Shown: piece after piece, positions 18,001 to 21,000 of the stretch
Layout: the number at the start of each line of letters is the position of its first letter
How positions within the stretch are numbered: position 1 is the stretch's first letter
NCBI RefSeq assembly: GCF_045037415.1
Contig: NZ_CP173440.1
Reading direction: 5' to 3' (one strand)
From: Escherichia coli
GTDB taxonomy: Bacteria > Pseudomonadota > Gammaproteobacteria > Enterobacterales > Enterobacteriaceae
DNA: 64,000 nt
Program-made: the position numbers

Positions 18001-21000
18001 TGAATCTTTTACAACCAAATTTTCTTGTTATTTTACATCTGTGACACGATAGTGTTTTCTCTTCAATTTTTAGACGGCTTTTTAATTCATGGATGCCCTC
18101 CCTCCTGGAGAGTAAGCATTGTAGAATGATTTGTTCTTTTTTTGTTAGTTGTGGGTAATGATTTCCAATCCGGCTAACATTTTTCTTTAAGTATGCATAA
18201 TATAGCTCTTCAATGTTTTTTTTAAATTTCCTTGCATGTTGACATAGATGTCATAATCACACCCTTTAGGATAAAACTTCTCCCCCCCCCCCGAAATGTC
18301 AAGCCACATCCATTGACTTATCATATTTAATGTTTTCCTTAACATTTTATAACCATCCCATTTCCCTGAATAAAAAATCCGGCTATCAACCAATACTCTT
18401 ATATTTCTTTTCTGCTTAATAACTATTGGTTTATCCATCGAGCCTTCATACGTAATATAAACCAGAGGTAGTCCAGTTAACTGCTTTAGGCCGAAATAAA
18501 AATAATAATCATCAGTTAACACTAATGTAACATCCTTATTGCACATAAAGTAAATATATTTTTCCATTGAAACACCAGTTTCATTATCTAATGATGCCTC
18601 CAGTAATTTATCTATTCAATTATAAATGTATTTCTTTTTAAAGCAACATAATACCATTTTACATGAAACATAATGTTTACAGTTTCATGATGAATTATTA
18701 TTCATTTTATGTGCTTAATAAGGTTTGTGTTTGTGTTTGCATGGTAGTAACAAATTGATTTTACTTTGAAAAAATAAATAAAGCATTTCCCTGTGTGATT
18801 AAGAATTCATAAAAAAGAATTGGGTATTTGTTTATTTAGGAATTATTTTAATAATACCCTCTTTTGAAATAATTATCACGATAATTTTATTAAAAACAAC
18901 AATACCCTTGGGGATTAGATTAATCTTACCCACCAATAGTGGACACAGGACTAAGTGAGTAAACTCTCAACCAGAGGTGACTCATGACAAAACCAGTATC
19001 AATCAGCAAGAAGCCCCGTAAACAACATACGCCTGAATTTCGTAACGAAGCCCTGAAACTCGCTGAACGCATCGGTGTGGCCGCCGCAGCCCGTGAACTC
19101 AACCTGTACGAATCTCAGCTTTATGCCTGGCGCAGTAAACAGCAGCAACAAATGAGTTCGTCAGAGCGCGAAAGCGAACTGGCCGCTGAAAATGTCCGCC
19201 TTAAACGACAACTGGCGGAGCAGGCTGAGGAACTGGCCATCCTCCAAAAGGCCGCGACATACTTCGCGAAGCGCCTGAATTTCAGTATCTTTAAGCTTTC
19301 CCCCGCTCGTCATTCCGTAACCCGGGCGAGCAGATTGACGGCAGCTTCCGGCTGAATGATGACTTTTACCTGTTGGAAGCTAAGTGGCATCAGAACAGAA
19401 CGCCAGCGGCAGATTTGCACGTATTCGAAGGAAAACTCAGCACCAAGGCAAAGTGGGCCCGGGGCGTGTTCATCAGATGGATGGGGTTTACTGATGAAGG
19501 TCTGACGGCCTTCGGGAAAGGAAAACGGGTGATCTGTGTCAGCGGTTATGATCTTTACCATTCACTCAGTCATGGTATCGCTCTGCCCGACCTTCTGGAC
19601 GCAAAACTCCGACACGCAGCGGAAACAGGGGAACCTTATGCCCAGTTCGACAGGCTTTACACTCTTAAGGGCATAATAAGCGGCACGCCGAAATAACCTG
19701 CATGGTAATTCAAGAAATTACCCTGCAGAGAGCGGCTTTCTTCACCCAGTCTTCCAGCACCAGACCCGGCACCCGCTCAAACTCTCTCACATTGTTCGTC
19801 ACTAGGACGGCGCCGGCCGCGATAGCGTGCCCAGCAATGGCCGTGTCGTTCGGGCCGATCGGCGTCCCGGCGAGGCGCAGCGCCACCCGGATGTCCGTCG
19901 TGGCGTCCACCGCGGCCCGGTCCCAGGGCAGGATGGCATCGAGGCGCGCGCAGAACGCGTCGACCAGCTGAATATGGCGCGGCGAGGCCTTCGGGCCGGT
20001 GGCGCCGAAGCGCATCTCGGCATACGTCACGGCCGAGACCACGATGCGATCACCGCGCAGCACCGCCTGTTCCAGGCGCTTCAGCACCGCTGCCGGCTGC
20101 TCGCGCATGATGAACGAGCAGATGTTAGTGTCGAGCATCCAGGTTTTCTTCATGGCTCAAAGCGTCCTTCATCGCTGACCACATCCTCACGCTCCGCCAT
20201 AAAGTCCGGAGCGGCCCTGTCCAGCTGCGCGAACGAGCCCCAGGTCGGCCGGACGGGACGCAGAATGATGCTGTCCCCTTCCCGGACGATCTCCAGCTCG
20301 CTGACGCCGTCAAAATCCAGGTCCCGGGGCAGACGGATGGCGCGGTTATTGCCGTTTTTAAATATCGAAACTGTGCGCATGGATGTTCCTCCAACTGATC
20401 ATGCATGATGTGTGAGTGCATATGTGCAGTATATGCCTGCCAGATTGGTTTGTATAGGTGTCGCATATGCAGATGACTGGCATATGCGTATGTCTGCCCT
20501 ATGCAGATGCGCGGAATATGGATATGCTGTGCATATCCTGTTTTCTCATTTCTCCACCGCAGATCCGAAAAATACCACAGCTGGAGGTGGCTGTTTGAAC
20601 CTGCGATTCAGTGAGATAACAGGAACTGACGGCCGGTCAGCGGGTAAACGCCTTCAGAAAAAGTCACCCTGGGCGAGAAAATGGAAGTGGGGAAAATGGC
20701 ATGAAGGAATTAAATAACCAATTAAAATCAGATAAATAGTGGGTTTTCGTGCCTTGAATCGGGCGAAATTTAATGTTTTCGGAAGTGAGAGGTTGCCTGA
20801 TAATGGCATCAGGCAGCTGCCGACCGGTGATATGGTGATTTACAATAATGCCGGACAGTACCTGATTTGCGCGATCTATTAAACCTGGCACCGGGCTGAC
20901 AGTCTTTAATTGAGCGACCTGCAGGCCTCTATATAGTTTTATCCCTCGTCCGGCGTCATACCGGAGCCACTGATACAGGATGTCCTGATGCACTTTTATG

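What the first reader, a model, noticed from the sequence alone, without database searches (positions are those of the whole stretch)
20410..20540. Dense array of ATATGC-type palindromic repeats in the vapBC upstream region
At least five related motifs (GCATATGTGCAGTATATGC, CGCATATGCAGATG, GGCATATGCGTATG, CCTATGCAGATGCG, GGAATATGGATATGCTGTGCATATCC) lie within 130 bp directly 5' of vapB. VapBC complexes usually autoregulate through palindromic operators, but this array is longer than a typical two-site operator.
Basis: partly seen in the sequence, partly recalled or inferred. Interest (0 to 1): 0.3.

Follow-up and report, generated by a model that had tools for sequence, protein, structure and literature searches.

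The report
Six-site operator array upstream of vapBC
The promoter of a plasmid toxin-antitoxin operon (vapBC/vagCD type) sits inside a 119-bp array of seven back-to-back 17-bp units, six of them intact. The array is conserved and most likely holds binding sites for the antitoxin, three times as many as in the VapBC systems studied so far.

Summary
Window 20419-20537 is a head-to-tail array of seven 17-bp units. Each unit is two CATATG-like hexamers 11 bp apart plus a 5-nt spacer. Six units are intact and one, between the predicted -35 and -10, is degenerate.

The lag-17 autocorrelation is the highest in the 64-kb window (z=5.1, 0/5000 shuffles). Only one other site of this kind occurs in the window. 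The predicted vapB promoter (-35 TATACA, -10 TATACT) lies inside the array.

In related loci from other species the hexamers are 93% conserved and the spacers 43%. Length differences are exactly 17 or 34 bp. More distant relatives keep only one or two such sites at the promoter.

The best reading is a multi-site operator for the AbrB-type antitoxin VapB (VapBC complex), expanded from the usual two sites in the plasmid-borne cassette. Binding was not tested; this rests on sequence evidence and on analogy with solved VapBC-DNA complexes.

This is a new variant of a known kind (TA autoregulatory operator). It is unannotated in thousands of clinical plasmids, including pLVPK and pKpQIL, and I found no paper on it in the library. 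Interest is moderate.

The parts
20419..20537 (-). Whole array: seven abutting 17-bp units (7 x 17 = 119 bp), read in the vapB sense
   Evidence: 17-bp grid. Units listed.
20521..20537 (-). Operator O7 (most distal): GATATG-CACAG-CATATC. With its flanking G/C it forms the perfect palindrome GGATATGC-TGT-GCATATCC at 20520-20538.
   Evidence: (I10). The orthologous site is conserved in 9 loci.
20504..20520 (-). Operator O6: CATATT-CCGCG-CATCTG
20487..20503 (-). Operator O5: CATAGG-GCAGA-CATACG. The variant hexamers are conserved at this position in other loci.
20470..20486 (-). Operator O4: CATATG-CCAGT-CATCTG
20453..20469 (-). Operator O3: CATATG-CGACA-CCTATA. Its proximal hexamer overlaps the predicted -35.
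20451..20456 (-). Predicted -35 hexamer TATACA
   Evidence: Consensus scan. Invariant in the 12-locus alignment. No experimental start-site data.
20436..20452 (-). Degenerate unit O2 (CAAACC-AATCT-GGCAGG) between -35 and -10. It holds the 17-bp phase but has lost both hexamers. Another cassette subtype (e.g. L004-L006, L013) keeps a recognisable unit here.
20428..20433 (-). Predicted -10 hexamer TATACT, 17-nt spacer from the -35
   Evidence: Invariant.
20419..20435 (-). Operator O1 (proximal): CATATA-CTGCA-CATATG. It covers the -10 and the inferred transcription start (about 20421-20423).
   Evidence: The start site is inferred from the -10 position only.
20388..20392 (-). Shine-Dalgarno GGAGG of vapB
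   Evidence: Sequence
20150..20380 (-). vapB (vagC-type antitoxin, 76 aa, AbrB/MazE fold), the presumed binder of the array
   Evidence: PF04014 E=4.5e-9. NF040493 91 bits. PDB relatives 6ifm, 5k8j, 3zvk.
19710..20153 (-). vapC (PIN-domain toxin), the presumed co-repressor. It is 147 aa; residues 1-138 align end to end with the 138-aa VapC of L002, leaving 9 extra C-terminal residues here.
   Evidence: PF01850. 98% identity to the L002 VapC over 138 aa.
20539..20577 (-). Conserved distal boundary of the cassette: a purine-rich box (sense GGTGGAGAAATGAGAAAACA), then the proximal arm of a GATC-containing hairpin (TTTTTCGGATCTGCG). The distal arm is missing in this window.
   Evidence: Homology to other cassettes ends at about 20572-20581. 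The hairpin folds at -20 kcal/mol in L013.

Best explanation
The array is a multi-site operator for the operon's own antitoxin. The basic site is 17 bp: two CATATG-like, individually palindromic hexamers whose starts are 11 bp apart, which places them in adjacent major grooves on one face of the helix.

Inferred by analogy with solved AbrB-type VapBC-DNA complexes: one VapB4C4 hetero-octamer puts one VapB dimer on each hexamer.

In this window six such sites are present. O1 covers the -10 and the start site, O3 covers the -35, and O4-O7 abut O3 with no gap, extending 68 bp further upstream.

Inferred: binding at O1 and O3 blocks RNA polymerase. The four upstream sites load further complexes next to the promoter. 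Successive sites are 17 bp apart (about 1.6 turns), so neighbouring complexes would sit on roughly opposite faces and could coexist. This would make repression tighter and more cooperative at the low protein levels of a low-copy plasmid, and would keep a local store of VapBC at the promoter.

Shown by comparison: the array grew from an ancestral one-to-two-site operator by tandem duplication of 17-bp and 34-bp blocks, and has since been kept by selection on the hexamers.
For: Position:
- The array is directly 5' of vapB and encloses the only sigma-70-like promoter predicted on that strand in the intergenic region. Its -35 and -10 are invariant in 12 loci.

Binder:
- VapB is an AbrB/MazE-fold protein.
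- Its N-terminal stretch FKNGNNRAIRLP, which I take to be the DNA-reading loop by analogy with other VapB structures, is identical in nearly all loci that carry the cassette array. More distant relatives that still carry CATATG sites have conservative changes (R13Q, I15V). The 52%-identical relative L078 (FKNGNSQAVRIP) has no CATATG site.

Geometry:
- In 31 minimal or distant loci the dominant hexamer spacing is 11 bp (35 cases, plus 3 of 12), and every locus has such a pair.
- C. crescentus VapBC1 binds half-sites about 10 nt apart in adjacent major grooves (PMC5389673).
- Each R. felis VapB2 dimer reads a short internal palindrome (PMC3326315).

Selection:
- For the five operators upstream of -35, pairwise identity across nine loci is 0.93 at hexamer positions and 0.43 in spacers.
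- Indels are exactly 17 bp (L033) or 34 bp (L002, L017).
- 149 successive PWM hits across 74 loci are exactly 17 bp apart; the next most frequent spacings are 11 bp (22) and 6 bp (19).

Expansion:
- Operators per locus are bimodal, with 30 loci at 1-2 and 21 loci at 5-6.
- Cassettes with the conserved boundary motif have a median of 5, others a median of 2 (Mann-Whitney p=1e-10).
- L034 carries 3.7-4.6 copies of a 34-bp double unit at 88-93% matches.

Specificity:
- Only one other such site occurs in the 64-kb window.
Against: There is no binding or expression data for this VapBC subfamily. I found none in the paper library, and VapB here is only distantly related to the characterised enteric VapB (35 bits to 6ifm).

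The promoter and the start site are consensus predictions.

The register of binding is not settled. A VapB dimer could instead read the 12-bp pseudo-palindrome CATCTGCATATG, with sites 17 bp apart. That spacing is larger than in the solved AbrB-type VapBC-DNA complexes I read (about 10 nt in C. crescentus VapBC1; a 27-bp operator holding both half-sites in R. felis VapBC2).

Characterised VapBC systems need only one or two operators (PMC3378870), so what the four upstream sites add is inferred. They might serve something other than repression.
Confidence: 0.75

Rival explanations
1. Only the promoter-proximal sites (O1, O3) regulate transcription. The upstream sites O4-O7 are kept for another VapBC-dependent purpose. 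Candidates are a sink that buffers free complex, titration of VapB from a competing plasmid with the same module (incompatibility or exclusion), bridging of two plasmid copies by the two-headed octamer, or a protein roadblock that insulates the cassette from outside transcription.
For: One operator is sufficient for regulation in Salmonella VapBC (PMC3378870). Many relatives manage with 1-2 sites. Expansion goes with the mobile cassette that carries a conserved boundary hairpin. In E. coli the module is almost always plasmid-borne: 2104 of 2138 places.
Against: O4-O7 abut O3 without any gap and stay in the same 17-bp phase as the promoter sites, as expected for one cooperative assembly. Nothing in the sequence points to pairing or roadblock functions. 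One long array (7 operators, L047) lies on a 5.2-Mb contig, so it is probably chromosomal.
Confidence: 0.15
2. The hexamers are sites for some other DNA-binding protein, from the host or the plasmid, and not for VapB.
For: Binding was not tested. CATATG is a simple palindrome.
Against: The motif follows vapB through Enterobacterales and Shewanella, and with 12-bp spacing into Betaproteobacteria MAGs, in many unrelated flanking contexts. It always has the same orientation and distance to the vapB start. It is absent from the rest of the 64-kb window apart from one isolated site. I know of no enterobacterial regulator with this consensus (own knowledge, not tested).
Confidence: 0.05
3. The repeats are plasmid iterons or a partition centromere.
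For: Direct repeats of 17 bp in tandem on a plasmid resemble iterons and parC/parS arrays.
Against: There is no rep or par gene next to the array in any of 12 annotated plasmid loci. The array travels with vapBC across IncFIB, IncHI1B, IncR, IncFII, IncFIA and IncI plasmids and onto very large, probably chromosomal, contigs. The vapB promoter is embedded in it.
Confidence: 0.02
4. The array is a neutral by-product of slipped-strand duplication with no function beyond the core promoter sites.
For: Copy number varies in 17/34-bp steps, and L034 shows a recent triplication.
Against: Old units are kept: hexamers are 93% identical against 43% for spacers in loci from nine species. Position-specific variant hexamers (CATACG, CATAGG, CATATC) are also conserved at orthologous positions.
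Confidence: 0.03

Closest known systems
vapO1/vapO2 operators of enteric VapBC (Salmonella LT2 STM3033/3034; Shigella pMYSH6000 mvpAT)
   Same: An AbrB-type VapB antitoxin with a PIN toxin. Operators overlap the -10 and -35 of the operon's own promoter. In those systems each operator binds one VapB4C4 octamer, and VapC acts as co-repressor with conditional cooperativity (PMC3378870, PMC3384007).
   Different: Those systems have two operators. Here there are six intact sites on a seven-unit array spanning 119 bp, four of them wholly upstream of the -35. VapB here is a different subfamily (vagC type; 35 bits to 6ifm) with a different recognition sequence. There are no experimental data for this one.
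DNA-bound VapBC structures: C. crescentus VapBC1 (5k8j/5l6m) and R. felis VapBC2 (3zvk)
   Same: Two short, internally palindromic half-sites about one turn apart are read by two AbrB-fold VapB dimers of one octamer in adjacent major grooves. The half-sites are TA-rich and deformable (PMC5389673, PMC3326315). The 11-bp hexamer pair here fits that geometry.
   Different: Those complexes have a single 27-bp operator each, with no tandem array. The fit here is by analogy only.
ccdAB operator-promoter of plasmid F
   Same: A plasmid addiction module whose repressor complex occupies about 120 bp by loading multiple toxin-antitoxin complexes along the DNA (review PMC3920265). The length is comparable to the 119-bp array here.
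   Different: As the review describes it, CcdA recognises a 6-bp palindrome downstream of the -10 that nucleates spreading into the 5' end of ccdA. Here there is a regular 17-bp lattice of discrete, individually conserved sites upstream of and over the promoter, and none in the coding region.
hipBA operators
   Same: Four spaced palindromic operators (TATCC-N8-GGATA) in one TA promoter region are bound cooperatively by the antitoxin (PMC3920265).
   Different: HipB is a helix-turn-helix protein. The site sequence differs, and copy-number variation between relatives is not described in the review I read.

Membership tests
Type II toxin-antitoxin autoregulatory operator (AbrB-type VapB/VapBC) | Lies in the promoter region directly 5' of the antitoxin gene and overlaps the -35/-10 elements | tested here: met
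   Predicted -35 20456..20451 and -10 20433..20428 lie inside the array. O3 and O1 overlap them. The promoter is predicted, not mapped.
Type II toxin-antitoxin autoregulatory operator (AbrB-type VapB/VapBC) | The cognate antitoxin carries a DNA-binding domain | tested here: met
   VapB matches PF04014 MazE/AbrB with E=4.5e-9 and NF040493 with 91 bits against a cutoff of 60. PDB relatives are VapB chains.
Type II toxin-antitoxin autoregulatory operator (AbrB-type VapB/VapBC) | Palindromic or pseudo-palindromic half-sites about one helical turn apart | tested here: met
   CATATG-like hexamers lie 11 bp apart in all six sites. 11 bp is also the dominant spacing in 31 distant loci. Compare PMC5389673 and PMC3326315.
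Type II toxin-antitoxin autoregulatory operator (AbrB-type VapB/VapBC) | The sites are conserved together with the antitoxin across relatives | tested here: met
   Hexamers 93% against spacers 43%. The motif is present at 11-bp spacing down to 60% VapB identity, and at 12-bp spacing in three 70-71% loci. It is absent at 52% identity, where the presumed reading loop differs.
Type II toxin-antitoxin autoregulatory operator (AbrB-type VapB/VapBC) | Direct binding by antitoxin or TA complex, and repression of the promoter | not testable with these tools
   This needs EMSA or footprinting and reporter fusions. I found no published data.
Plasmid replication iterons | Tandem direct repeats adjacent to, and travelling with, a rep gene or origin | tested here: not met
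   No rep gene flanks the array in 12 annotated plasmid loci of at least six replicon types. The array always accompanies vapB.
Partition centromere (parC/parS-type repeat array) | A repeat array next to a parA/parB-type or parM/parR-type operon whose adaptor binds it | tested here: not met
   No partition genes are adjacent in any annotated locus.
Structured RNA or coding sequence | Match to a known RNA family, or a conserved reading frame across the repeats | tested here: not met
   Rfam gives only sub-threshold chance hits. The + strand ORF 20412..20717 is broken by 17-nt and 34-nt indels in relatives.

The most novel reading that the evidence does not exclude
The expanded array is more than a repressor site. 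On plasmid cassettes it would nucleate a regular zig-zag filament of VapB4C4 octamers. The filament would either (a) count or buffer VapBC, so that the threshold for toxin release after plasmid loss is set by operator number, or (b) bridge operator arrays on two plasmid copies or on competing plasmids. Under (b) the TA module would gain a pairing or exclusion function, and 17/34-bp copy-number changes would be an evolvable tuning knob.
Probability: 0.1. Interest if true: 0.7.

Novelty: new variant of a known kind. Interest (0 to 1): 0.4.

Why it matters
This vapBC (vagCD-type) cassette is one of the commonest addiction modules on clinical Enterobacterales plasmids. Matches to the 200-bp upstream region (window 20381-20580) occur in 3710 PLSDB records, including pLVPK-type virulence plasmids and pKpQIL. 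Matches to the module plus its flanks (window 19700-21000) occur in 1661 of 5426 complete E. coli genomes.

The control region is unannotated, and I found no study of it in the paper library. It offers a natural series of the same promoter with 1 to 8 or more operators. That series could be used to test how operator multiplicity shapes repression, conditional cooperativity and post-segregational killing. It also defines a precise DNA target for attempts to derepress or disarm the module.

If the upstream sites only strengthen repression, this is an incremental addition to TA biology.

Tried and rejected
- **Iterons or centromere.** Rejected because no rep or par genes are adjacent and the array moves with vapBC across replicon types.
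- **Known RNA.** The Rfam scan of 20100-21100 gave only chance hits below threshold.
- **Coding sequence.** The + strand ORF 20412..20717, annotated as 'hypothetical protein' in some records, is rejected because relatives differ by 17-nt and 34-nt indels and spacer positions are nearly randomised.
- **12-mer reading.** I first read the unit as a 12-mer (CATCTGCATATG) plus a 5-nt spacer, with one VapB dimer per 12-mer. I kept this only as an alternative register, because distant relatives conserve the 11-bp hexamer pair and not the abutting 6-bp pair.
- **Literature.** Searches for vagC/vagD, vapBC with Klebsiella, vapBC2/pSLT and vagCD operator found no study of this operator. vapBC2 of pSLT turned out to be the mvpAT orthologue, a different subfamily.
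- **Intrinsic terminator.** The terminator-like call on the + strand at 20520-20538 is the O7 palindrome followed by the T-rich complement of the conserved purine box. I did not adopt it as the primary function, because the hairpin is weak (8 pairs, 4 G-C) and its sequence is explained by the operator model.
- **Not done.** I made no structure prediction, because the available tool cannot model protein-DNA complexes.
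Full report
**What is there.** The finding lies between two divergent genes of a Klebsiella pneumoniae virulence-plasmid-type sequence. The region is 100% identical to pLVPK (NC_005249.1) and to many hybrid virulence plasmids.

On the minus strand, vapB (20380..20150, 76 aa) and vapC (20153..19710) form a type II toxin-antitoxin operon. VapB matches the MazE/AbrB antitoxin family (PF04014, E=4.5e-9; NF040493, 91 bits). VapC is a PIN-domain protein. The proteins are of the vagC/vagD type; one database entry for a 97%-identical protein is named 'VagC protein'. They are only distantly related to the experimentally studied enteric VapB (35 bits to PDB 6ifm).

They fall on a strict 17-bp lattice:
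- The repeat finder returns two four-copy families whose members are 17 or 34 bp apart.
- Tandem Repeats Finder reports period 17.
- Lag-17 autocorrelation of the 136-bp core is 0.49, against 0.26+/-0.04 in dinucleotide-preserving shuffles (z=5.1). None of 5000 shuffles reaches it at any lag from 4 to 44.
- It is the highest lag-17 value of any 136-bp stretch in the 64-kb window.
- Lag 34 is even higher (0.54), so unit types alternate.

Read in the vapB sense, each unit is a CATATG-like hexamer, five variable bases, and a second hexamer (CATCTG, CATACG or CATATC). The two hexamers start 11 bp apart and units abut without a gap.

With a simple score (>=10 of 12 hexamer positions) six units are intact: 20521-20537, 20504-20520, 20487-20503, 20470-20486, 20453-20469 and 20419-20435. 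The unit at 20436-20452 keeps the phase but has lost both hexamers. Only one other such site exists anywhere in the window (9633-9649), and shuffles of the region give 0.011 on average.

**The promoter is inside the array.** The only sigma-70-like promoter predicted on the vapB strand of the intergenic region has -35 TATACA at 20456..20451 and -10 TATACT at 20433..20428, with a 17-nt spacer. The -35 overlaps the proximal hexamer of the 20453-20469 unit. The -10 and the inferred start (about 20421-20423) lie within the 20419-20435 unit. Four further units extend 68 bp upstream of the unit that covers the -35. This promoter is a prediction, but both hexamers are invariant in twelve related loci.

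**Comparative evidence.** The module from the vapC stop to about 20575 is a cassette found at 80-96% identity in thousands of Enterobacterales plasmids of many replicon types. In E. coli, matches to the module plus its flanks occur in 1661 of 5426 complete genomes, and 2104 of the 2138 places are on plasmids. Matches to the 200-bp upstream region alone occur in 3710 PLSDB records. In none of the listed rows is it annotated as anything but 'none' or an overlapping hypothetical protein.

I collected 12 plasmid loci and 72 loci from one-genome-per-species contigs, and scored the upstream regions of 74 of them. The results:
- **Spacing.** A position weight matrix built from the units gives 149 successive hits exactly 17 bp apart. 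The next most frequent spacings are 11 bp (22) and 6 bp (19), the two intra-lattice distances.
- **Conservation.** In an alignment of twelve loci with the same architecture, the hexamers form invariant blocks separated by variable 5-nt spacers. Length differences are exactly 17 bp (L033) or 34 bp (L002, L017).
- **Quantified.** For the five operators upstream of the -35, across nine loci from different species, mean pairwise identity is 0.93 at hexamer positions and 0.43 in spacers. Position-specific variant hexamers (CATAGG...CATACG at one position...CATATC at another) are also conserved at the same position.

**What the basic site is.** More distant or apparently chromosomal relatives keep only one or two sites at the promoter. 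In many enterobacterial chromosomes this is the core TATACATATGC-N-CATCTGCATATACT-N-GCATATGC. In a Shewanella locus and an Oceanospirillaceae MAG it is two or more CATATG hexamers 11 bp apart. In three Betaproteobacteria-type MAG loci it is two hexamers 12 bp apart, next to a TTGACA-type -35.

In 31 such loci the dominant spacing between successive hexamers is 11 bp (35 cases, plus 3 of 12 bp). Every locus has at least one such pair, and the abutting 6-bp spacing is secondary (14 cases). The ancestral operator is therefore the 17-bp element hexamer-N5-hexamer, and the array is a head-to-tail concatenation of it.

The N-terminal stretch FKNGNNRAIRLP of VapB is, by analogy with other VapB structures, the DNA-reading loop. 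It is identical in nearly all loci with the cassette array. More distant relatives that still carry CATATG sites have conservative changes (R13Q, I15V). The one relative at 52% identity has a more altered stretch (FKNGNSQAVRIP) and no CATATG sites, carrying an ATGTAC-N7-GTACAT repeat instead.

**Expansion.** Operators per locus are bimodal: 30 loci have 1-2 and 21 have 5-6, with a maximum of 8 by the strict score.
- Loci with the conserved distal boundary (a GATC-containing hairpin followed by a purine-rich box) have a median of 5 operators; the rest have a median of 2 (Mann-Whitney p=1e-10).
- Contigs of at least 400 kb have a median of 1.5. The ten clearly plasmid-borne loci L002-L011 have 4-7.
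- One gut isolate (L034) has 9.3 copies of the 17-bp unit, including 3.7-4.6 copies of a 34-bp double unit at 88-93% matches, which is a recent tandem duplication.

The array therefore grows and shrinks in 17/34-bp steps, and old units are retained by selection.

**How it most likely works.**

Shown here: position, regularity, the embedded predicted promoter, an AbrB-fold antitoxin, and site-by-site conservation with vapB.

Established for relatives:
- AbrB-type VapB dimers read short palindromes in a widened major groove.
- The two VapB dimers of a VapB4C4 octamer occupy half-sites about one turn apart: C. crescentus about 10 nt in adjacent major grooves (PMC5389673); R. felis a 27-bp operator with internally palindromic half-sites (PMC3326315).
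- Salmonella and Shigella VapBC bind two operators over the -10 and -35, one octamer each. VapC acts as co-repressor and, in excess, as de-repressor (PMC3378870; PMC3384007).

Inferred:
- Each 17-bp unit binds one octamer.
- The units over the -10 and -35 block RNA polymerase.
- The four contiguous upstream units load further complexes. Successive units are about 1.6 turns apart, so neighbours face roughly opposite sides and need not clash.
- The result would be a higher-order complex with tighter and more cooperative repression, plus a local store of complex.

I put 0.75 on 'VapB/VapBC operator array'. Within that, I am much less sure what the extra sites add.

An alternative register cannot be excluded by sequence alone. 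In it, one VapB dimer reads each 12-bp pseudo-palindrome CATCTGCATATG, with sites 17 bp apart.

**Rivals.**
- The upstream sites may serve a VapBC-dependent function other than repression: sink, exclusion of competing plasmids, pairing, or roadblock (0.15).
- A different protein may bind (0.05). This is disfavoured because the motif follows vapB through many genera and contexts and is otherwise absent from the window.
- Iterons or a centromere (0.02). No rep or par genes are adjacent, and the array is independent of replicon type.
- Neutral duplication (0.03). The hexamer/spacer contrast contradicts this.
- Rfam finds no RNA family.
- The ORF across the array is broken by 17/34-nt indels in relatives.

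**Comparison with known systems.** Functionally this is a type II TA autoregulatory operator. All sequence-level defining features are met, and binding is untested.

It differs from the characterised VapBC operators by having six intact sites on a 119-bp lattice instead of two, and by marked copy-number variation among relatives. The nearest analogues in scale are the roughly 120-bp CcdA-CcdB nucleoprotein complex on the F ccd promoter and the four hipBA operators (PMC3920265). Both use different folds and layouts.

I found no paper on the vagCD-type operator in the library. Older subscription literature could not be searched.

**Verdict.** It is a new variant of a known kind. Interest is moderate (0.4). 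It is not surprising in principle, but it is a clean, widespread and unannotated natural series of operator multiplicity on clinically important plasmids, and it is easy to test.

Noticed in passing
window 20539-20581; L013 about 1290-1350 and most cassette-type loci: The distal edge of the vapBC cassette is a conserved purine-rich box (GGAAAAAGAGAGAA-like), preceded by a strong GATC-containing hairpin (CAGATCCGgAA...TTTTTTCGGATCTG; -20 kcal/mol in L013, z=-3.1). In the window only the proximal arm survives, and homology to other cassettes stops inside the hairpin loop. The hairpin may therefore be a recombination breakpoint or an insulator. Its function is unknown.
   Followed up: partly
L007-L011, L018, L024, L026, L032, L035, L045 (leader, about -45 to -25 from the vapB ATG): One cassette subtype has a longer 5' leader with an extra perfect operator-like palindrome, GGATATG-N5-CATATCC, between the promoter and the ribosome-binding site. 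The window's subtype lacks it.
   Followed up: partly
L034 1302-1459: This is the longest array seen: 9.3 units of 17 bp, with 3.7-4.6 near-identical 34-bp double units (88-93% matches). It shows that arrays expand by recent tandem duplication. Some hexamers there are in the inverted orientation (CAGATG).
   Followed up: yes
window 19710-19740: VapC here is 147 aa. Residues 1-138 align end to end with the 138-aa VapC of L002, leaving 9 extra C-terminal residues (KAALCRVIS). Nucleotide homology to other cassettes begins at about 19739. The usual stop therefore appears to be lost at the cassette junction.
   Followed up: partly
window 18984-19355 (+): A truncated IS3-family transposase orfA fragment (123 aa, 45.6 bits, below the family cutoff) lies about 350 bp beyond the 3' end of vapC. 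It is consistent with the rearranged junction.
   Followed up: no
window 20412-20717 (+); L005 2098-2559: An ORF on the opposite strand runs through the repeat array and is annotated 'hypothetical protein' in some RefSeq records. It is probably spurious, because relatives differ by 17-nt and 34-nt indels.
   Followed up: yes
window 9633-9649: This is the single isolated operator-like site (CATATGCAGACCATGTT, 10/12) outside the array. It is probably a chance match.
   Followed up: no
window 20988-22121 (+): The divergent neighbour is a DUF3800 protein (377 aa) with its own predicted promoter at 20910-20937. It is not part of the conserved vapBC cassette.
   Followed up: no
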